Of a stretch of 64,000 nt of DNA, positions 13,438-64,000 are shown piece after piece. Made by a program: the position numbers and the translations under genes. The notes under the pieces are model-generated. The model ran no database searches. It had not been told where the DNA came from and worked only from the letters and a program-made list of their open reading frames with translations. Source of the stretch: Eledone cirrhosa. Lineage: Eukaryota. Location of the stretch: contig OZ024763.1 of the NCBI GenBank assembly GCA_964016885.1, positions 16,058,001-16,122,000 of the forward strand. Direction: 5' to 3'. Each line of letters begins with the position of its first letter. The stretch's first letter is position 1.

Positions 13438-13438
<1 letters not shown>

Positions 13439-15810
13439 GATATTAAATAAATGGAAACTATATTTATAAAACCATATTTATTTCGTTATATATATTTCAG
13501 GGATATCATATTAACAATATGTTATGCCTTCTTCAGACAAAATACAATATAAACAGTCTTATAAATAAATAGATACGACATACCTTTCAATCACCTTGCA
13601 TTTGGGAGGTTGATTTGGCAGTAAAAAATATTGTGGACAGTTGTAAAAAGAAAGAGATAAAGAGAGAAAGAAAGAGAAACGAAAAAGAAGAAATGCATGT
13701 GACTAAATAGAGAGATATAGAAAGATAGATAAAGAGAAGAACTTCATGTAAAGAAACAGAGAGAAATATATATAGAGAGAGGAAAAAAAGAAAGAGATAG
13801 ATAGAGAAACTAGGAAGTTGGGTATCGGTTGATACATTTATTTATTTATTTATTTATTTATTTAGCTCTAGTATTAATGTAAAGAGAGATGTATGTAGTT
13901 AAGAGAGAAAATAGGCGTTATATAGAGAGAAAAAAGAGAAAATGAAAAAGAGAAAATGAAACATAACCAGACATAAACGATGCAGAATTTAAAACCGCTA
14001 TGTTTTATCCGTAGAAAATATTAGTTCGTATAAAACAGGCATTATAATGTAAATACCAGTATTCATGAATGAGACATGTATCTATAATGTGTGAAAAGTA
14101 ATGATCTTATGTCTAGTTTTTAAAAATTCATATGTTTATATCATAATTATAAACAAACTCCCAATTCACACGAAAACATTCTCATTGTGCTATAAAAATT
14201 CAAGTATACATATGTGTGTATATATACACATATATATAGAGTCTATATTAATTTTAACAATACTATTCTTGTCTTTATTCTACATGATTGTCGATCAAGC
14301 AGAAATAGAGAACAGATTTCAAAATATTAATAAAAATAAAAATATCAGAGACAAGAAAATAAATAAATAAACAGAAAACTAAAACATTTAATATTAAAAA
14401 TAAAAAATATTACAAAATATTAAAAAATATAAAAAATAATAATACAAATAAAACACAGAGATCAGCCTTTCAAAGTTAATTGACAATATATTGCCAAGAT
14501 CATCATAAGCATCAGAGTCGAAACAGATAAAACAAAAATTGTTTACCAAATCCTGTCTAGCAGAAATCATTCCAAAAGTTTTGGTCTACATATGTTCATA
14601 TATTTAATATAGAAGTTTATCTAGTTTAAAATTTAATTCGATATATTTGGAGCATCAGCTTTTAGGGTAGTTTAATTATTCATGAAGAATGTTTTAATAA
14701 AAAGAAGAAATCGAAAGATTTATCGGCTAGTTTCATAAATAAATACAAATCAAATCAAACATAACTACATTTTAAATTTAAATTTATATTTAAACGTTGA
14801 GTTCAATCTATGTCTGCAGCAACTGAATAAATTTGTCCGTAGATTAAGGGAATTTTTAGATTTTAGTATAAAGAATATCTCCTCCGCACAGAGGTCACAT
14901 GTCTCAGAGGATGAATTAAAAGGAATCCCCCTTGAAACTATATTCCAAGTCGTCGAATATCTAACGTTATCATGCCTAAGTTGCCAGAGTACGCCTGATA
15001 GTGCTGTTGAAGATTTTTTGGATGGATCTGTGAAAGAATTCTTGTGGTTGTTATAGCGAAGTTTAAATTCCGTCGATGTAGAACCAACGTAGTTAAAATA
15101 ATTAACGTCCGTTTTAACATTACAGTTGTATATTATATTTCTAACTAAGCAGTTGTTATTTAACGGACATTTAGATCTATCTCTACAGTTACATTTGTTA
15201 ACTTGGATATTATTTATGCTATTATCGCTAGGTTTTAAGTTCCTGTTATTTATTCTATTAATATTTTGCGCTAAATTTTCGGTGGATGAGTAGGTTAGTT
15301 TTATAGTATGTCTATTGAAAATTGAGTGATACCTATGTGTTCTAGGGAAGCGATTATCGAGAGCTTTAAAAAATAGTTTAGCAATGTGGGTTTTAATGTT
15401 TAGTGAGAAAGGGGGGGGGGGGCAAACCATATTATATTCCTAGTTCTATTTCTTTTATGGCTTTTGGAATTATTGTAATGCTTTCTATTATAGTTGTTAA
15501 GGTTGTGGCCATAATTAAAATAGTTGTTATTTTGTTTAATTTGTTTATCATTATCTATGTACATAATTTTATCACTATATCCTGCTCTAGCTAACGCTTC
15601 ATTGTAATAATGGGCTTTTTCTTCGAAAATCTTTTTATTAGATGAGATTCTAGAGATACGTGATTGAACAGATGGTTTTAAATATGGTTTTATAAATATA
15701 GTTTCCATTTATTTAATATCATAAATATACTCCAAATACTTGTTGAGTGCTTTTATATCAGTTATAAATATTTACTCGTTGTTAACCCAACAATTTAAAT
15801 ATAACTTTCC

Positions 15811-15812
<2 letters not shown>
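13438..15812 (-). mobile_element. 5'-truncated Penelope-like retroelement (GIY-YIG endonuclease end, 3' UTR, hammerhead, inverted terminal copy)
   Basis: Frameshifted ORFs 15400-15708 and 14765-15430 with CNC..CP....C, NIIY, YVGST..FKLRYNNH, CDLC..E, LN.R, C.H. 13438-13480 is the reverse complement of 15680-15722. Flanked by (TA)n. Confidence 0.9.
13480..13543 (-). ncRNA. Type I hammerhead motif at the 3' end of the Penelope-like element (family A)
   Basis: Minus strand ATTTTGT-CTGAAGA-aggcataacatatt/aatatgatatccct-GAAA-tatata-TA-ACGAAAT. Confidence 0.78.
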
Positions 15813-15854
<42 letters not shown>

Positions 15855-15867
<13 letters not shown>

Positions 15868-18939: not shown

Positions 18940-19745
18940 GGCTGCCACTAAATTTGGCAGGAAAGGTAAAGTTGATTAAATTATCCTCATTATTTAACTG
19001 GTACTTTTATTAACCCAAAATGGATGAAAGGCAAAGTTGATCTTGGCAAGATTTGAACTCAGAATGTAAAAAATCTCAGAACAAATACCACCACAATAGT
19101 ATTCTATCTGACGCTCTACTGATTCTGCCAACCCGCCATCATACATTTCAAGTATATTGGTTTCTAATTTTGGCAGAAAATTTGGCAGCAAATTTATCGA
19201 CTGCCAAAGTTGATATAATCAACCCCAGTACATTACTGGTACTTTATTTTATCGACCCCAGAAGGATGAAATGCAAAGTTGACCTCGGTGGGATTTGAAC
19301 TCAGAATGTAAAACAACCAGAAATAAATGTCACAAAAGTTTCTGTGAGACACTCTACCAATTCTACCAACCCACCAACCCCAGTATTTAACTGGTATCTT
19401 ATTCTATCAACCGCAGAAGGATGAAAGACAAAGTTGACATTGGTGGGATTTGAACTCAGAATATAAAACTCCCAGAAATAGATATCACAAAACATTCTAT
19501 GAGACACTCTACCAATTCAACCAATCCACCAACCCCAGTATTTAACTGGTACCTTATTTCATCAACCCCAGAAGGATGAAAGTTGACCTTGGTGAGAATT
19601 AAACTCAGAATGTAAAACACTCAGAAATAATTGTCACAAAACATTCTGTGAGACACTCTACCAATTCTTACCAATCCACCAACCTCCATAGATTATAAAA
19701 AGATTCATTCCAAATTTTGGCAGAAGGCCAGAAAATTTAGTCTGA
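18940..19745 (-). mobile_element. Tandem cluster of tRNA-SINE copies
   Basis: Repeated AGGATGAAAGGCAAAGTTGACCTCGG..GATTTGAACTCAG. Confidence 0.75.
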
Positions 19746-24329: not shown

Positions 24330-26497
24330 TATAAATAACCAAAAACTAGAAAAACTACGCAAAGATATAAGAAAACTACTACTCGAAATAGGACTAACTA
24401 TAACATATGAATACAACCTTAAAGTAGTTAACTTCCTGGATGTCACACTCAATTTAAACTCTGGTCTGATTAAACCGTTTCATAAATTGAATGAAAATCT
24501 CAAATACGTAAATGTTGGGTCTAACCACCCCATCTCTATAATTAAATCTATCCCTAAAAATATTTCCCTTAGAATCTCGGGTCTATCTTCTAACATACAA
24601 GTATTTAAGGAACACGCCGAGTACTACGATAACGCCCTTATTAAAGCAGGCTACCTCAACAAAATAGAGTATATAGATGAGAACAATCAAAACACCCAAA
24701 ATAAATCCCACATAGGTAGATATAATAACACAACACCAAACCACACTTACTACCATAGTATACACACCAGTAAACCAACAAACAAAACTAATAGAAAGCG
24801 ATGCAAAGAGTACTTATGGTATAACCCCGAATACAATAGTTCCATTAGTACAAATTTACCAGTACTCTTCTTTAAAATAATTAAGAGACATTTTCCTACA
24901 TCACACAAATACCACAAAATCCTAAACCCTACCACTATAAGACTGTCATACTCTACAGCGTTAAATACTAAAAACTTAAGTACAAAGAACACAAAAAAAA
25001 CAGTAGACAATACACTACAGAACATAAATAAACCACACCTAAGTTCGTCTGCAATACTACTCCAGAGAAAACCCAATGTACACAACTGTAACTGCACCTA
25101 TCCTGACAACTGCCCCCTCGGCAATAACTGCCTGGAAAAAAATATTATTTATAAGTGTACCATTAAATCCGGAGGCAACGAGTGGTATTACGTGGGATCA
25201 ACGGCAACATCGTTTAAATCTCGATTATATAGGCATTCTTACTCAATAAAACACCAGAGCCAAAGAAATGTAACAACTTTAGAAGAAAAAGCTTGGACGC
25301 TCAGGGATAGCGATCAAAAGTTTACCCTAAAATGGGAGAAATTAGCTAAAACCCAAAGCTTTTCCAGGAGCCAAAATTTCTGCAAATTGTGTAATCTTGA
25401 GATCTATTACATAATCACACACAAGAGGAAATTGCTGAATAACAGAATTGAACGAACATTATTCTGCTGTCACCGAACTAAAACCCTTTTTTCCCACTAC
25501 AAGCTGAATATTACATAAAAGAGGGACATCCCCCCAACTATATAAACCTCAATCTAGTTAGAAAAATATAAAAATAATCTCTTCTCAGCATATATATGTA
25601 TATTAATAACCTTAAATTACCACACTAATAATGGAAAGATATGCTGATGAGAATAGGTCCAAATATGCTATAATGAATGTGTCTAAAAGCGACCATAAGT
25701 ATGTATATATATGGGAAAAATGTATATAAATAAGTAAATATATATATATATGTTTGATGTGTATAGTTAGATGTAAGTGCATTCATGTATTAAAGTGTTT
25801 ATATATATATATATACATATACACATAGACTGGAGTATGTGTGTATATATGTGTGTGTCTATACGTGTGTATATAAAGATAAGTTGAGTATGAAAATGTA
25901 TACACATGAACGCGTATGTATGTACATGTATATATGTGTATATATATATGTATGCATGTGTATATGTATGTAAGTATGAGCATGTAAGTATGTGTATGTG
26001 AGTATATGTATTTTGTAGAGGTGTGCATATATGTTTGTGTGTGAATGCGTGGGCGAAAGGATACGTACACTTGAAAGAAAAATTTAAGTCTGAATGTTAA
26101 GTGCAAACACAAAACCAACCACGCATATCTTTACTATCTCTAATCCTTCTATAGATTTAGAAAAATAACCAATAATATATTCTATAAAAATGTCAAAACA
26201 ACAGATGGGAATCTAATTACTCACTGCCACCAAAAATTGTCACTGCTATCAAAAAACCACTCCCTCAACTATTCTTCTAACAACTTCACCCCTCCCTCCT
26301 AATATTCTCTATAAAAACCAAACAAGTCCCCAGTAAAATTATTCCGATGAAATGACAGTTGATAATAACATTGAAATATTGAATGTCTGCATAACTAATA
26401 CTTTGTAGATAGCAGCTGTTTTCAGGTTATGTAACTGTTATAGAAACACGTGTCAATAAATTCCTTTTAACTAAACTGTATCCATTAAAATCCTTCT
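24330..26497 (+). mobile_element. 5'-truncated Penelope-like retroelement (RT end, GIY-YIG endonuclease, 3' UTR, hammerhead)
   Basis: ORF to 25518 with [55 protein letters not shown]; begins and ends in (TA)n. Confidence 0.92.
26339..26459 (+). ncRNA. Hammerhead motif with CCGATGA core and long stem II
   Basis: TTATT-CCGATGA-aatgacagtt...aactgttata-GAAA-cacgtg-TC-AATAA, about 40 bp before the terminal (TA)n. Confidence 0.65.
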
Positions 26498-34328: not shown

Positions 34329-34331
<3 letters not shown>

Positions 34332-34740
34332 AAAGTTCTATTTAAAATTGTTGGGATACAACAAGTAAATATTTTTATAACTGATATAAAGCACTCGACA
34401 AGTATTTTTTCTCCATGCATTTCTCTCTCTCCGATATTTCTCCACGTTTTTTTTCTTTTTCTTTTTTTTCTCTCTCTCTGTCTTTTTTCTTTCTCTCCGT
34501 CTTTTTCTAATTGTCCTTAACACTAAGACTTATTAAAATAATATAAACAATCCACTATCCAGATGGCTTCCAAAAATAATGGTTGCATTTTAAAAGGGTA
34601 CGTCAAAGCTTATTTGTAAAACTGTTATATATTGTATTTTGTCTGATGAAGGCATACCATAATTTAATTTGGTATCCCTGAAATATGTATAATGAAATAA
34701 ATATGGTTTTATAAATATAGTTTCCATTTATTAATATCGT
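34329..34740 (+). mobile_element. Short Penelope-derived copy (family A): inverted tail, 3' UTR, hammerhead at 34636-34698
   Basis: ATTTTGT-CTGATGA-aggcatacca/tggtatccct-GAAA-tatgta-TA-ATGAAAT; 34329-34405 is the reverse complement of 50340-50417. Confidence 0.85.
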
Positions 34741-34766
34741 ATATATATATATATATATATATATAT

Positions 34767-35016
34767 GATATTAATAAATGAGTACATCAAAGAATGAGTT
34801 TTACAGTAGATTGGAAGCACTCTACGAAAAAATAATTTTCCAGAGTTATTAATATTAAAATACAAATATTAATAAAATAGATGTTCTTTTGATCAATTAC
34901 ATTTTATTATACATATTTTGTCTGATGAGGACGTACTGTTGTACATCCAAAATATGTATAATAAAATGTAATTGATCAAAAGAACATCTATTTTATTAAT
35001 ATTTGTATTTTAATAT
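34767..35016. mobile_element. Foldback (34852-34920/34948-35016) with a mutated hammerhead at 34915-34967
   Basis: ATTTTGT-CTGATGA-ggacgtac/tgtt/gtacatcc-AAAA-tatgta-TA-ATAAAAT. Confidence 0.8.
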
Positions 35017-38030: not shown

Positions 38031-38125
38031 AACACACTCAAGAAGAAGAAGAAGAAGTAGGCAAAAAAGAAGAAAAAGATTATAATAATTGGATAAAAAG
38101 TAAAAAATAAGATATAAATATTTAC

Positions 38126-38754
38126 TTTCTGCTGATCAAACTTTTAATATCCTCTTCTAATCCACTAAAACCCAAGAAATGCAGTAAATCTTCGAGAATA
38201 TTCCATGGAATCTTGTCAGAGAATTTGATCAAATGCAACAAATTCTTGGGTGCACTTTGCCAGGTTTGCAAGATTTCCTTGTATTCTTGTGTCCAAAAAC
38301 ACATCACAGAGTTACTGTAGTTGGCATTTTTGTTTACAAACTCAGCAATGGCGTCCAAAGACATCTGCAATTTCTGAGCTGAAGGTTTTGTTACTTTATT
38401 GAAGCTATAAGCTTCAAGCATGGCTATGTTAATCCAGGATGTGGCGAACATGTTTACATCATAAACGGCAAAAAGATCCCTGGTGATTGTCATAACACGA
38501 TTGCCATGAAAGTAAAGCTTCACATCGCTTTCATAAATCCCCTTCTTGTGACTCCAGGTAAACGGAAGGAAAGTTTTGCTGTCCTTTTCCGCTTGGTATG
38601 AATATATATGATCGAAAAGTTTATTTATCGTAGCAGAGAGGTCTTCATTTGTTGGTGAGGGCAAGCTTGATTGTAAGCCATGGATTTGTAATAAAACCAT
38701 ATACAAAGTTATTGTCACAGCCTTGGTAAGTGCACTGACAAAACAAGCAGACAT
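38126..38754 (-). CDS. Exon 1 of an uncharacterised secreted protein gene (8 exons, 1905-nt CDS, about 634 aa)
   Basis: 209 open codons with a hydrophobic N-terminus; GTAAA donor in phase 2 joins exon 2; all seven introns are GT-AG and phase-compatible. Confidence 0.88.
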
Positions 38755-39013
38755 TGTAATCTGTTTTTTTTTTTTGTGTGTGCTTTAAAATAGTTTTTTT
38801 CCTCACCTAATCTTTAGAAAATATATTTCTATTACATATATTTATATTCGGCTGCTTTCTCTAACACCAAGTCACAATTACTAGGAAAACACGGTTGTCT
38901 GCTTAACTTATATAGTGAGAAACAAATAGAGGGGGAGAAGGGGAGAGAGAGAGGGATAAAGAGAGAGTGGCACACTTACTCATACTCACACTCACACTTA
39001 TATATGTAGGTAC

Positions 39014-53775: not shown

Positions 53776-53808
<33 letters not shown>

Positions 53809-53814
<6 letters not shown>

Positions 53815-54402
53815 ATACTTTGGGAGGGTCATGTTGCCAATAAGAAACACACGCACCAGTTGCTTTCACTTCAATTTAATTTATTAAATATTTATAAATT
53901 TACAAATTTATAAATTTCTGGTTGGTTGGTTGGTTCCACAACCAGATAGTTGTTTATATATATATAGTCATAGTTCTTTCGTCACACACTCTGTGACCTC
54001 TTCAGTGACTGGGGATTTCTTTCTTCGTTTCTGTGCCTTTCCTTTCTTCTATCCTACGCCATATCCTACGCCATATTCTACGCCGAATATGGCGTAGGAT
54101 AGAAGAAAGGAAAGGCACAGAAACGAAGAAAGAAATCCCCAGTCACTGAAGAGGTCACAGAGTGTGTGACGAAAGAACTATGACTATATATATATATATA
54201 AACAACTATCTGGTTGTGGAACCAACCAACCAACCAGAAATTTATAAATTTGTAAATTTATAAATATTTAATAAATTAAATTGAAGTGAAAGCAACTGGT
54301 GCGTGTGTTTCTTATTGGCAACATGACTCTCCCAAAGTATAACAATATCGGTTTCAACACACGATTTCAGATAAAGAATCTTGCTAAACAAATTCAGAAA
54401 CG

Positions 54403-54405
<3 letters not shown>
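53809..54405. mobile_element. Young large foldback (53809-54070/54088-54345) with hammerheads at 53966-54010(-) and 54141-54185(+), plus tail
   Basis: Arms of about 260 bp, nearly identical; AGTCA-CTGAAGA-g-gtcaca/gagtg/tgtgac-GAAA-gaac-TA-TGACT; terminus also found at 35032-35092. Confidence 0.9.
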
Positions 54406-57016: not shown

Positions 57017-57069
<53 letters not shown>

Positions 57070-57509
57070 GGCAGTATCGGTAGAGGGTCGGACGCCATGC
57101 TTTGACGCATAGAGTTACGGCCCTTGCCATTCTGAGTTCAAATCCCGCCCGAGGTTAACTTTGCCTTTCATCCTTACGGGGGTCGATAAAATAAAGTACC
57201 AGTAATGTACTGGGTAATTGCTGGTCTTGTGCCAATAGTAGAAACAATTATTATTATTAAGGGCAGTATCGGTAGAGGGTTGGACGCCATGCTTTCTAGC
57301 ATAGTTACGTCCCTTTACGGTCTGAGTTCAAACCCTGCCGAGGTCGACTTTGCCTTTCATCCTTACGGGTCGATAAAATAGAGTACCAGTAATGTACTGG
57401 GTAATTGCTGACCTTGTGCCAAAAGTAGAAACAATTATTATTATTATTATTTCTATATTACAGGTTGAAATGAAAGTAAAATCGAATGAAATAATTTCTT
57501 ATAGTTCCT

Positions 57510-59725: not shown

Positions 59726-60020
59726 TAAAGTCTCAAGAAAGCTGCAGTATTATTAACAGTCCTTACTCAACTCGTGACTATTGGCTTGCAATATATACTG
59801 GGCCATTTATATCATTATTCATTATTTTAAAGGCGGTAGATTGGCAGTATCAGTAGAGCATACGGCCCTTTATGGTCTGAGTTCAAATCCCGCCGAGGTT
59901 AACTTTGCCTTTCATCCTTACGGGGTCGATAAAATAAAGTACCAGTAATGCACTGGGATAATTGTTGGCCTTGTGCCAAAAGTAGAAACAATTATTCATT
60001 GATGTATGTATAGTATATTT

Positions 60021-60870: not shown

Positions 60871-61230
60871 ATGTTCGAATAACCCCTATGGTGGTGGTGA
60901 TGGTGTAGGGGGTTCTATTCTTAAATTGAGTTTCCTTCTTGAGTAAGACACTTCATTTCACGTTGCTCCAGTATACTCAGCTGAAAATAAGTACCAGCAG
61001 CAATAGCTGGGAGTTTAACACTGCGAAAGACTGGGGTCCAGTCCATGTGGGCTGGTGAGGTTTGTGCTCGTTGTCACTTTACACCACGGAAACCAGGATG
61101 AGCACCGGCCTGATGTACCTCCGAGTTCGAGACAGACTTTAGAGACTTCTTACTGGGGGTGGATGGGGGTTCCTCTTGTTACAATACGATAAATATAACT
61201 GAACTATTTATATTTTTTCAGATTTGAACA

Positions 61231-63417
61231 ATGAAAAGACTGCGTTCCAAAGCAAACCCAGCAGACGACCCTGACTATTTGACAAAAACCTATTTCCCAG
61301 GAGTGTCTAATGTTCTCGAGATCAAAGCAGATAACCAAAAGAAAGAACGCCAGCCGGCAAAACCCAGTCCCTACTGTGCTAAGAAGTGTAAGACGACAGT
61401 TGGTCGTGGTAGTTGCAGTCAAGCCCCTTTCAAAGACTTCAAGTTAGGTAAAAAATATCAGAGAGAAACCCCATCCAATCTTGATATGCAGATGAAAAGT
61501 TACCAGCGGCCCGAGCCAAATCTTATGAAAACGGACTCCGGCGATGTTGACAATGGCAAAATCTGTGGTGATAGTGGTAACTTTGACACGATAGAAAACT
61601 CGCTTGGTAAGCAGCAACAGCAACAACAGCAACAACAGCAACAACAACAACAACAACAACAGCAACAACAGCAACAGCAACATCAACAGCAACAGCCGCC
61701 ACAGCAGCACATCGACCTGTGCCAAGTTGAAATAGATGTAAGACAAAGTTCAAAAGGTATGGGTTTATTGGTTGAAGAGGAGGTTAGTAACAACTGCAAC
61801 AACAATAATTCTGAAACGTCGTTGATTCACATTAAACAGGAAGAAGAACACAACGAAGAAATGATCCGAAACGAAGTTTTTGACATTGTCAACTACCAAG
61901 AAAAATATAATATATGCTCAGCGTTAAAATTTGAACTCCCCGATTTAAATTCGAACAATTTGAAACCAGCGTCAGCACCATCCCCTGACATGTCTTGCGA
62001 TTACATATCAAATACTGGCGATAAAAATTACTTCAATGCCGGCAGCAGAATTCCAACATGTCTACCTCAATCGGAACCAGAAGAATGTAAGTTCTTTGAA
62101 GGTCAGTCTAATTTGTCAGTTATTCCCGAAGAAGAAAAGTTGAAAGATAATATTTACGACGTCGAAGTTCAACAAAGTGAGATAGAAAGCAATAATGCGC
62201 CATCACAGTATAGCAACAAGGACTCGTGCCTTCGTTTGCTGCTGTCGGGAGAGGGTGAAGACAACACACACAGTACAATGATAAATCCTTGCACCAATAC
62301 TTCAAACCCTTCACCCGGATTAGCACCTATGCTGTCTGTCTCAACCCATTCTACTCAACAGAATTTTAACTATCTACCCGTCCCACAAAATTTTCCCGCT
62401 GGTCAAGAGTTTTCCAATATGAATCTTCCCAAGAACAACCAAGAAATCCCGTGGATGCCTCTCGGACTCCCGACACAGCCACCATCTTCCGTTAGTCCCG
62501 ACTGGAACACTCATTATCTTTGTTCAAGTTCTCAGCTCCCGTACAACACACCTTTACCATCCTATTCACACCACTTCCCCCTGGGGAATCCTCCCGGAAG
62601 ATGTTGGAACCAAAATGTACCAGCCTATAAACAGAATCTCCAATCGCCAAACAATTCGTTTTCTGACCTCAACGTCATGTCTGGACCATTCATGAAAACC
62701 CCTCAAAATTGCTACCTCTTACACTCCATGCTTCACTCTTCTCCGCCTTACTCTTTTCTACCCAATCAAAAACCATTTGCAACAAATTTAAATATTCAAG
62801 ATTTACCTTCTAAATCGAAATCGTATCAAAATGTCAACGATTTACCCGTTGGCTTGCCTTGCACAGGACCGCCTAGCTCGAAAAAGCTTCCCTTTACAGA
62901 CAATGAAATACAAGAGGAGTGCCTTTTAAAAGAAAATGCCAAGTCACAGGACAACTTTTGCATCACCATTTTAGCAGCGGACGTCAAACTCATCGACCAC
63001 CATAGAACCAAGGAATACTTCCCTGTGTTTCAAAACCACGAAATCCCAAAGACTCTATCCGGCTCTCCGAAAGTCGAATTCATTTTGAGCAAATACATAG
63101 ATTTTTTGCTGCTGGAAAACGAAGGGATCACGGAAATATCCAAAGCGTTCACACCAGCGACGCGTTTGTTCTCGGACGAAGACGAATACGTACTGGACGT
63201 GGCGGACAAGAAAATTAACTTCCCTTCCATCAAATTCGTAGAATTCATGCAAAGACATTTCCCAGATATCAACATGCAGTCGATCAACTTTCTGATTGGC
63301 CCCTTTCACTTCACGTCAGCTCAGAAGCTGGACACCAACGAGAAAATCATGCAGGATTCCTTTTTCCATTTCCAGCAACTGAGAACACGGATGAGGGAAA
63401 ATCTCGCAGCTTTTTGA
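61231..63417 (+). CDS. 728-aa uncharacterised protein with polyQ, in one large exon
   Basis: Long non-repetitive open frame; acceptor TTTTTTCAG 9 nt before the ATG; Q-run, Pro/Ser/Asn-rich middle, globular-looking C-terminus; AATAAA near 63653. Confidence 0.85.
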   Translation: MKRLRSKANPADDPDYLTKTYFPGVSNVLEIKADNQKKERQPAKPSPYCAKKCKTTVGRGSCSQAPFKDFKLGKKYQRETPSNLDMQMKSYQRPEPNLMKTDSGDVDNGKICGDSGNFDTIENSLGKQQQQQQQQQQQQQQQQQQQQQQQHQQQQPPQQHIDLCQVEIDVRQSSKGMGLLVEEEVSNNCNNNNSETSLIHIKQEEEHNEEMIRNEVFDIVNYQEKYNICSALKFELPDLNSNNLKPASAPSPDMSCDYISNTGDKNYFNAGSRIPTCLPQSEPEECKFFEGQSNLSVIPEEEKLKDNIYDVEVQQSEIESNNAPSQYSNKDSCLRLLLSGEGEDNTHSTMINPCTNTSNPSPGLAPMLSVSTHSTQQNFNYLPVPQNFPAGQEFSNMNLPKNNQEIPWMPLGLPTQPPSSVSPDWNTHYLCSSSQLPYNTPLPSYSHHFPLGNPPGRCWNQNVPAYKQNLQSPNNSFSDLNVMSGPFMKTPQNCYLLHSMLHSSPPYSFLPNQKPFATNLNIQDLPSKSKSYQNVNDLPVGLPCTGPPSSKKLPFTDNEIQEECLLKENAKSQDNFCITILAADVKLIDHHRTKEYFPVFQNHEIPKTLSGSPKVEFILSKYIDFLLLENEGITEISKAFTPATRLFSDEDEYVLDVADKKINFPSIKFVEFMQRHFPDINMQSINFLIGPFHFTSAQKLDTNEKIMQDSFFHFQQLRTRMRENLAAF

Positions 63418-63779: not shown

Positions 63780-64000
63780 AGGCGATGGATTGGCAGAATC
63801 GGTGGAGCGCCGGACAGGATTGTTCGCGGCACAGAGTTACGGCCCTTTACGTTCTGAGCTCAAATCCTTCCGAGGTTAACTTTGCCTTTCATCCTTACAG
63901 GGGGTCGATAAAATAAAGTACCAGTAATGGACTGGGGTCGATTTAATCGACTTTCCCCTCCCCCAAAATTACTGGCCTTGTGCCTATACTAGAAATCATT
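63780..64000 (+). mobile_element. Full-length tRNA-derived SINE (other copies at 51780-52070, 57070-57430, 59830-59995)
   Basis: TGGCAGAATCGGTGGAGC, GAGCTCAAATCC, GCCTTTCATCCTTACAGGGGGTCGATAAAATAAAGTACCAG. Confidence 0.85.

What the first reader, a model, noticed from the sequence alone, without database searches (positions are those of the whole stretch)
13438..15812. Fixed asymmetric architecture: the sense copy stops at a set point and the inverted copy carries an extra tail
Seen: family A sense copies end at ..TTTCCATTTATT(T)AATATC plus (TA)n (11357, 13438, 34740, 44314, 50121). At the other end an inverted piece carries about 90 more nt (TACTCCAAATACTTGT(T/C)GAGTGCTTT...): arm plus tail at 15680-15812 and 50289-50417, tail only at 34329-34405. 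Unrelated families show the same arm-plus-tail layout (7010, 7638, 34767, 45574, 50457, 54345). Known: Penelope copies often have an inverted terminal repeat with a tail. Inference: integration involves two cDNA priming events, one on each strand of the self-complementary (TA)n target, starting at two defined RNA positions.
Basis: partly seen in the sequence, partly recalled or inferred. Interest (0 to 1): 0.72.

Follow-up and report, generated by a model that had tools for sequence, protein, structure and literature searches.

The report
Penelope insertions pair two fixed ends
These mirror-image insertions belong to a known jumping-gene group (Hydra-type Penelope elements); almost every one joins one arm ending at a first fixed point to one arm ending about 90 bases further on, likely because both cut strands of the target DNA copy the same RNA from two marked start points, but the extra tail sits on either arm, not only on the inverted one.

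Summary
The fixed end points are real; the claimed polarity is not. 13439-15810 is a 5'-truncated Hydra-clade Penelope-like element in (TA)n. In 1.3 Mb sampled from this genome, 309 of 319 family ends fall at two sites, S1 and S2, 90 nt apart, and 127 of 129 head-to-head insertions carry exactly one of each. The tail is not tied to the inverted arm: where only one arm reaches the ORF, it carries the tail in 19 of 25. The tail is the element's 5' leader. A small hairpin motif lies 3-9 nt after both S1 and S2 in four families. Both arms are the same variant, join by microhomology, and are either both short (stopping at an initiator-like site near -185) or both long (110 of 125). Best model: twin priming from both target strands, one per hairpin. 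Inverted pLTR, one-sided tail and two start sites are published; the strict one-of-each rule, twin hairpins and length coupling were not found in my seven literature searches. This scan noted twin priming and the paired hairpins before, in this genome and others.

The parts
13295..13438 (.). TA-rich microsatellite, left flank (target)
13439..15672 (-). Long arm ending at S1 (no tail): 5'-truncated element, positions -2296..0 from S1, 96% identical to full-length copy L031
14765..15439 (-). C-terminal ORF part: CxCx5C linker, GIY-YIG-type endonuclease motifs, CxxC, CxH; the RT remnant upstream is in another frame across a G run near 15412-15423
13487..13536 (-). Minimal type I hammerhead core in the pLTR; predicted cleavage 48 nt before S1
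13617..13624 (-). Initiator-like site (about -183 from S1) where short arms of the family stop; putative RNA 5' end (inferred)
   Evidence: sequence
15673..15678 (.). Head-to-head junction: 6 extra bases that repeat the start of the adjacent arm (templated-insertion-like)
15679..15720 (+). Short inverted arm, -41..0 from S1
15721..15810 (+). 90-nt tail from S1 to S2 = 5' leader of the full-length element (100% to L031)
15729..15751 (+). Hairpin motif R1, 8 nt after S1; its twin R2 lies 9 nt after S2 in full-length copies only
15811..15863 (.). S2 junction (ATG, as in the RNA) and (TA)25 right flank
34332..34738 (.). Family A insertion: tail-only arm (-) 34332-34407 and S1 arm (+) 34405-34738, 3-nt overlap
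50123..50413 (.). Family A insertion: S1 arm (-) 50123-50288 and tail arm (+) 50288-50413
11237..11360 (+). Older family A variant, S1-type end, no partner found
44315..44439 (-). Older family A variant, S1-type end, no partner found
7010..7379 (.). Family B hairpin (7109-7379) with hammerheads at 7209(-) and 7278(+), tail 7010-7108, R1 at 7104(-)
7639..7963 (.). Further family: arms 7720-7789 and 7894-7963, tail 7639-7719, R1 at 7720(-)
34767..35016 (.). Family C hairpin (34852-35016), tail with R1 at 34846(-), atypical tail end
44807..45730 (.). Family D: arms 44807-45093 and 45294-45580, tail from 45581
50457..50851 (.). Family F hairpin (50538-50851), tail 50457-50537, R1 at 50534(-)
53807..54404 (.). 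Family E hairpin (53807-54348) with hammerheads at 54005(-) and 54146(+), tail to about 54404; no R motif

Best explanation
Each insertion of this Hydra-type Penelope element is a head-to-head pair of arms, one ending at site S1 and one at site S2 90 nt further on, with the tail on either arm; they are likely two DNA copies of the same RNA region, primed from the two cut strands of a (TA)n target at start points likely set by twin hairpins, then likely joined at their inner ends by short homology. Shown: two end sites, one of each per insertion, tail = 5' leader, hairpin motif 3-9 nt after both sites, arms of the same variant, excess microhomology and templated insertions at unique junctions, both arms short or both long, short arms stopping at an initiator-like site. 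Inferred: one RT active site docks at each hairpin (probably a dimer), which makes the pairing exclusive; the RNA is not destroyed, so the S2 copy can overrun the S1 copy; short/short insertions are run-off copies from the RNA 5' end; long/long insertions use a template without that end (a hammerhead-closed circle, a read-through tandem, or a jump between pLTRs: unresolved); host end joining (polymerase-theta-like, recalled) seals the junction.
For: 309 of 319 ends at S1/S2. 127 of 129 continuous pairs S1+S2 (p=2e-35 against free choice); with the partner end free: 81 of 81 paired S1 anchors meet S2, 70 of 71 paired tail anchors meet S1. Five other families: 61 of 63 rows with a partner stop at S1. 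Either arm longer: 61/43/21, which one fold-back cannot give. Arms same variant: 83 of 89 within 4 differences in 120 nt, against 12% of random pairs. Junction overlap mean 2.7 nt against 1.1 in simulated joins, 69 junctions, p=6e-11; 23 of 33 inserts of 8 nt or more match nearby sequence; junctions unique but for one adjacent duplicate. Motif twice per 3,747-nt unit, at S1+8 and S2+9; R2 also in B, C, D read-through copies. Short/short 70, long/long 40, mixed 15; holds within subfamilies (110 concordant against permutation maximum 92). Stop rate 0.027/nt at -190..-181, 0.00075/nt beyond -250; 10 of 22 motif-scored arms start exactly at the initiator A. In vitro a Poseidon PLE cuts and extends both strands and starts at two sites bounding the tail (PMC11167929).
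Against: All evidence is from finished genomic copies; no intermediate or RNA was seen. In vitro the anole element showed no difference in start site between strands and no homology to the target (PMC11167929), so exclusivity is not reproduced there. Family E follows the rule (15 of 15) with no R motif (0 of 30). The R stem is only 4-5 bp, -3 to -9 kcal/mol, with one compensated pair; the motif was defined from these same sequences. 58 ends had no partner called and 7 of 136 candidate pairs were dropped for low coverage; 66 of 129 rows in other families had no partner within 1.4 kb. One family A pair is S2+S2, one S1+S1 (complex), and one family B locus has two tails. The short/long cut at -192 was chosen after seeing the histogram. 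The templated-insert count has no null and includes unresolved palindromes. The sample is the first 77 Mb of one contig.
Confidence: 0.72

Rival explanations
1. One priming at S2, fold-back (self-primed) second-strand synthesis, and endonuclease resolution or TA annealing at S1 create the short end; this is close to the published suggestions of self-priming and endonuclease-mediated resolution.
For: 21 of 125 insertions are near-perfect palindromes and some centres are natural palindromes; arms are the same variant; tail arm is the ORF-bearing one in 19 of 25; proposed in PMC3846280 and PMC8557442 (passages).
Against: A fold-back copy cannot reach further 5' than its template, yet the S1 arm does so in 61 of 125, by up to 3.3 kb; an S1-primed fold-back cannot add the tail. 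S1 has its own hairpin at the same spacing as S2.
Confidence: 0.1
2. Twin priming, but on two separate RNA molecules held by one complex, or with S2 primed at an RNA 3' end through a read-through (UA)n rather than by hairpin R2.
For: Explains overlapping arms without strand displacement; genomic 3' pLTRs lack R2 and are followed by (TA)n; no same-strand R2 neighbour at unit distance among the first 100 of 333 R2 copies.
Against: Independent RNAs would mix variants and uncouple arm lengths; arms match in 83 of 89 and length class in 110 of 125. R2 is kept in four families just after S2.
Confidence: 0.13
3. One reading: the sense copy always stops at S1 and the inverted copy always carries the tail.
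For: True for 3 of 3 complete family A insertions in the window.
Against: Tail on the only ORF-bearing arm in 19 of 25; full-length L031 has the tail on the sense copy and a tail-less 137-nt inverted arm.
Confidence: 0.02
4. The short hairpins are non-autonomous units (MITE-like) copied whole, or arise after insertion by DNA rearrangement in unstable (TA)n.
For: 70 of 125 insertions are short palindromes; many end near the same position.
Against: Junction sequences are unique apart from one adjacent duplicate; ends fall at two RNA-defined sites in 309 of 319; a continuum runs up to more than one unit length.
Confidence: 0.03

Closest known systems
Hydra clade of endonuclease-positive Penelope-like elements (Craig et al. 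2021, PMC8557442; Hydra section read, other passages seen)
   Same: C-terminal endonuclease, RW[K/R], DKT, CxCx5C, CxxC and CxH motifs, hammerhead in the pLTR, (TA)n targeting, partial tandems and inverted 5'-truncated copy with a one-sided tail.
   Different: Unit 3.7-4.0 kb (paper: generally under 3 kb); tail about 90 nt (paper: 30-40 bp); the passages seen do not give a one-of-each rule, twin hairpins or arm-length coupling.
Poseidon element of Anolis carolinensis, internal RT initiation (Frangieh et al. 2024, PMC11167929; main text read, methods in part, supplements not seen)
   Same: Both strands cut and extended; two internal RT start sites bound the tail; AT-rich target; hammerhead cleavage not needed.
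   Different: There the start sites lie in a stem-loop 111-118 nt into the ORF, with no strand difference and no target homology; here they lie upstream of the ORF, each before its own hairpin, within a TA-like tract, and are used once each per insertion.
Adineta vaga Penelope elements with inverted pLTR and tail (Arkhipova et al. 2013, PMC3846280; passages seen)
   Same: Head-to-head inverted pLTR, optional tail on one pLTR, initiator-like TCACT in the pLTR, microhomology at junctions.
   Different: Explained there by self-priming on an antisense template; my arm-length data exclude fold-back as the only route.
L1 twin priming (Ostertag and Kazazian 2001; recalled, paper not held)
   Same: Both target strands prime cDNA on one RNA and the cDNAs join by microhomology, giving an inversion.
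   Different: L1's second priming is at a variable upstream site and the two parts barely overlap; here both sites are fixed, 90 nt apart, and the arms duplicate each other.

Membership tests
EN+ Penelope-like elements | Telomerase-related reverse transcriptase | tested here: met
   Model of intact ORF (L126, 740 aa, pLDDT 89) has TERT as best PDB match, E=2.9e-9, 4 of the top 5 rows telomerase; YRDD conserved in 61-63 of 63 per position. Pfam and PDB sequence searches gave no relevant match.
EN+ Penelope-like elements | GIY-YIG endonuclease | tested here: inconclusive
   Y620, Y633, G635, R644, H648 invariant and E/N in 60 of 63, in the expected order; no profile hit and the domain was not fold-searched alone.
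EN+ Penelope-like elements | pLTR from partial tandems; inverted 5'-truncated copy; tail | tested here: met
EN+ Penelope-like elements | Hammerhead ribozyme in the pLTR | tested here: met
   CUGANGA with all four N, GAAA, palindromic loop III; 95% of cells paired, 2 pairs with double changes. Rfam gave no match. Cleavage not tested.
Hydra clade | RWK motif and DKG changed to DKT | tested here: met
   RWR in this element (K in 42, R in 18 of 63); DKT in this element and T in 55 of 63
Hydra clade | CxCx5C linker, CxxC and CxH around E and N, no CCHH | tested here: met
   C599, C601, C607; C697xxC700; C724xH726; only one, unconserved, cysteine between the two tyrosines
Hydra clade | Insertion into (TA)n | tested here: met
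   Perfect TA run of 8 nt or more after 121 of 125 S1 ends and 117 of 125 S2 ends; the S1 sample was partly selected on TA
Hydra clade | Phylogenetic placement with named Hydra elements | not tested
   No reference Hydra sequences were fetched; nearest named homolog is a hypothetical Argonauta hians protein, 39%
Naiad/Chlamys | N-terminal endonuclease, no canonical hammerhead | tested here: not met
   Endonuclease motifs are C-terminal and a hammerhead is present
L1-type twin priming | Second priming at a variable upstream site, non-overlapping parts | tested here: not met
   Both ends fixed and arms overlap; definition recalled

The most novel reading that the evidence does not exclude
Hydra-type Penelope elements integrate by obligate two-ended priming: two RT subunits dock on two copies of one RNA hairpin and each extends one target strand, with no ordinary second-strand priming; short palindromes are run-off copies from the transcript 5' end, while long and more-than-unit-length arms are rolled off a hammerhead-closed circular RNA of the whole coding element.
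Probability: 0.3. Interest if true: 0.8.

Novelty: new variant of a known kind. Interest (0 to 1): 0.52.

Why it matters
How Penelope-like elements, the closest mobile relatives of telomerase, build their inverted ends and tails is still open; the one in vitro study leaves the later steps unvalidated. The genomic rules here (one S1 and one S2 end per insertion, a hairpin after each, coupled arm lengths, a sharp stop at an initiator) turn that into direct tests with an intact 740-aa ORF. For annotation, thousands of short palindromes in (TA)n in this genome are retro-insertions made anew each time, not DNA transposons.

Tried and rejected
Pfam and PDB sequence search gave nothing for the element. 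Rfam: no hammerhead among the 150 of 212 rows shown for the window and 0 matches on the pLTR. Hammerhead cleavage as the 5' limit of inverted arms (my first idea): rejected, only 2-4 arms per 10-nt bin near -48 and most arms read through. First end-calling had a filter that hid ends upstream of -6; repeated without it. Homodimer prediction of residues 1-490: no answer. Sequencing runs: no RNA holder listed. Three RAD-seq runs show S1+(TA)n loose ends (5,116-7,695 reads) and strand-switch joints but are biased by restriction sites and were not used for ratios. Filled against empty sites were not compared, so target-site duplication or loss inside (TA)n is unknown. The L1 twin-priming paper was not held.

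Full report
Observation. The stretch 13439-15810 lies between TA runs and consists of a long minus-strand arm (13439-15672) and a short plus-strand arm with 90 extra bases (15679-15810), joined head to head. The same layout occurs at 34332-34738 and 50123-50413. The copies at 11357 and 44314 are an older variant with a slightly different end and no partner found. The six other named places are hairpins with a one-sided tail. Genome-wide, the tail pattern has 5,527 and the S1+(TA)n pattern 9,662 exact matches, with 0 for reversed controls.

What the element is. Two tail matches 3,747 nt apart gave a full-length unit (L031); an intact 740-aa ORF is in L126. Its predicted structure is closest to telomerase RT. 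It has the motifs that define the Hydra clade in PMC8557442 (section read): RW[K/R], DKT, CxCx5C, CxxC, CxH, no CCHH. The pLTR holds a minimal hammerhead with a variable core N and two compensated stem II pairs, of the kind described in PMC4209133 (passages). In full-length copies the tail continues into the ORF, so it is the 5' leader. The genome is 3.0 Gb; an earlier scan note calls it an octopus, and the nearest named homolog is from Argonauta hians.

Sample. I fetched DNA around the first 100 tail matches and the first 100 S1 matches, all on contig C1, merged into 149 segments, 1.31 Mb. Without an end filter, 151 ends lie at S1, 158 at S2 and 10 elsewhere, of 319. Of 136 candidate head-to-head pairs, 7 were dropped for coverage under 70%; 127 of the other 129 have one S1 and one S2 end, one is S2+S2 with arms of unlike variants and one is a complex S1+S1. 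With the partner end free, 81 of 100 S1 anchors pair with S2 (18 unpaired, 1 not called) and 70 of 100 tail anchors pair with S1 (1 with S2, 23 unpaired, 4 internal tandem, 2 not called). Some unpaired ends have a partner of only a few bases, others abut (TA)n or are interrupted. In five other families, 61 of 63 rows with a partner within 1.4 kb stop at S1; the other 2 rows are one two-tailed locus; 66 of 129 rows had no partner in range.

Polarity. In 125 resolved insertions the S1 arm reaches further 5' in 61, the tail arm in 43, with 21 ties (p=0.10). Where only one arm reaches the ORF, it is the tail arm in 19 and the S1 arm in 6 (p=0.015); among S1-anchored cases 13 and 5. L031 itself is a full-length sense copy with the tail and a 137-nt inverted arm without it.

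What sets the two ends. A motif R-CUC...GAG-Y-GCU occurs twice in the unit, 8 nt after S1 and 9 nt after S2, against 0.036 expected per shuffled unit (the motif was defined from these sequences). It is in the tails of families B, C, D (28 of 30 each) and F (9 of 9), not E (0 of 30), and a second copy follows S2 in read-through copies of B, C and D. It folds into a weak 4-5-bp stem whose outer pair is A-U or G-C. The bases between start and hairpin are TA-like, but the shared tract can be as short as 2 nt without moving S1 (5 of 5), and in the subfamily whose RNA reads AUGUAU after S2, 21 of 24 ends have lost the G and 3 keep it. So position appears measured from the hairpin and fine-tuned by pairing with the target (inference).

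How the arms meet. The two arms of one insertion differ by 4 or fewer changes in 120 nt in 83 of 89 pairs, against 12% of random pairs. Among 118 non-palindromic junctions, 69 overlap or abut, with mean overlap 2.7 nt against 1.1 in simulated joins (p=6e-11); 38 carry 4 or more extra bases (18% in the null, from reference mismatch), and 23 of 33 inserts of 8 nt or more match nearby sequence, with no null for that count. Junctions are unique but for one adjacent duplicate, so each insertion is built anew. Since the S1 arm is often the longer, fold-back of one cDNA cannot be the only route; two primings are needed.

Two template classes. Arm 5' ends pile up at -190..-181 (36 of 133 still running; 4 of 97 in the next bin; stop rate 0.027 against 0.00075 per nt beyond -250), and of 22 arms scored for the motif 10 start exactly at the A of an initiator-like site and 11 start 2-3 nt later; PMC3846280 notes an initiator-like TCACT in rotifer pLTRs. 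Arms are both short in 70, both long in 40, mixed in 15 (odds ratio 50; cut chosen after seeing the data), also within subfamilies. Of 30 R2-bearing copies, 18 (two of them duplicates) extend more than 200 nt upstream of the inner S1 and 2 stop at the initiator; none of the first 100 of 333 R2 copies has a same-strand neighbour at unit distance. Long arms therefore come from a template without that 5' end. A hammerhead-closed circle fits best, but read-through tandems or a jump between pLTRs are not excluded; there is no pile-up at the hammerhead cut site and no RNA evidence.

Relation to what is known. The inverted 5'-truncated copy with a one-sided tail is described (PMC8557442, PMC3846280; passages). 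PMC11167929 (main text read) shows both-strand extension and two start sites bounding the tail, but reports no strand difference and does not treat the inversion. My seven searches returned no paper on twin priming in Penelope elements, twin hairpins or arm-length coupling; subscription papers and supplements were not seen. The bioRxiv paper 10.64898/2026.07.22.740005 (passages) links animal retrozymes to pLTRs but did not bear on ends. This scan's own notes record twin priming in other genomes and the paired hairpins, circles and RNA-start stop in this genome; my reading was noted before the look-up, and those notes are not independent support.

Verdict. The value lies in quantitative rules that make the open integration mechanism testable. 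Interest 0.52.

Noticed in passing
window 10975-11154: A 14-nt tandem array (12.9 copies) grown from the family A pLTR segment just before S1, followed by an S1-like end; a minisatellite born from a pLTR.
   Followed up: no
window 11471-13160: 5'-truncated non-LTR retrotransposon (RVT_1, E=1.7e-31; RTE-like by recall) inserted in the TA run left of the element, with stops and a 31-nt tandem at its 3' end.
   Followed up: partly
window 24338-25518 (+): 5'-truncated ORF of another Hydra-like family (CxCx5C, CxxC, CxH motifs) starting directly after a TA run.
   Followed up: no
window 34740-34780: The family C tail ends about 20 nt early in a sequence that mirrors the neighbouring family A S1 end across a short TA run; probably a local fold-back or repair event.
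   Followed up: partly
window 7440-7575: Small hairpin (7500-7575) with a 60-nt one-sided extension between TA runs; no hammerhead core or R motif found by my patterns.
   Followed up: no
L215/L216 (G000:C1:27320050-27320609): Family B palindrome of about 645 nt with tails on both arms, one cut short and not followed by TA: the only two-tailed locus in that sample.
   Followed up: partly
L333/L334, L126 (G000:C1:43106820-43115923): Two R2-bearing copies 5.2 kb apart on opposite strands, head to head; possibly an insertion with both arms longer than one unit.
   Followed up: partly
L031:4391-4442: Reads from three RAD-seq runs show joints going back 52 or 30 nt from S1, i.e. short tandem re-priming at S1.
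   Followed up: no
window 61228-63417 (-): 729-codon open frame with a polyglutamine run, probably a host exon; another likely exon at 38122-38784 (-).
   Followed up: no
window 4567-4950, 19200-19700, 39570-40230, 46130-46430, 48280-48470, 57050-57450, 59860-60000, 63780-64000: Many copies of one dispersed short repeat, some amplified into 121-, 155- and 100-nt tandem arrays; SINE-like by recall.
   Followed up: no
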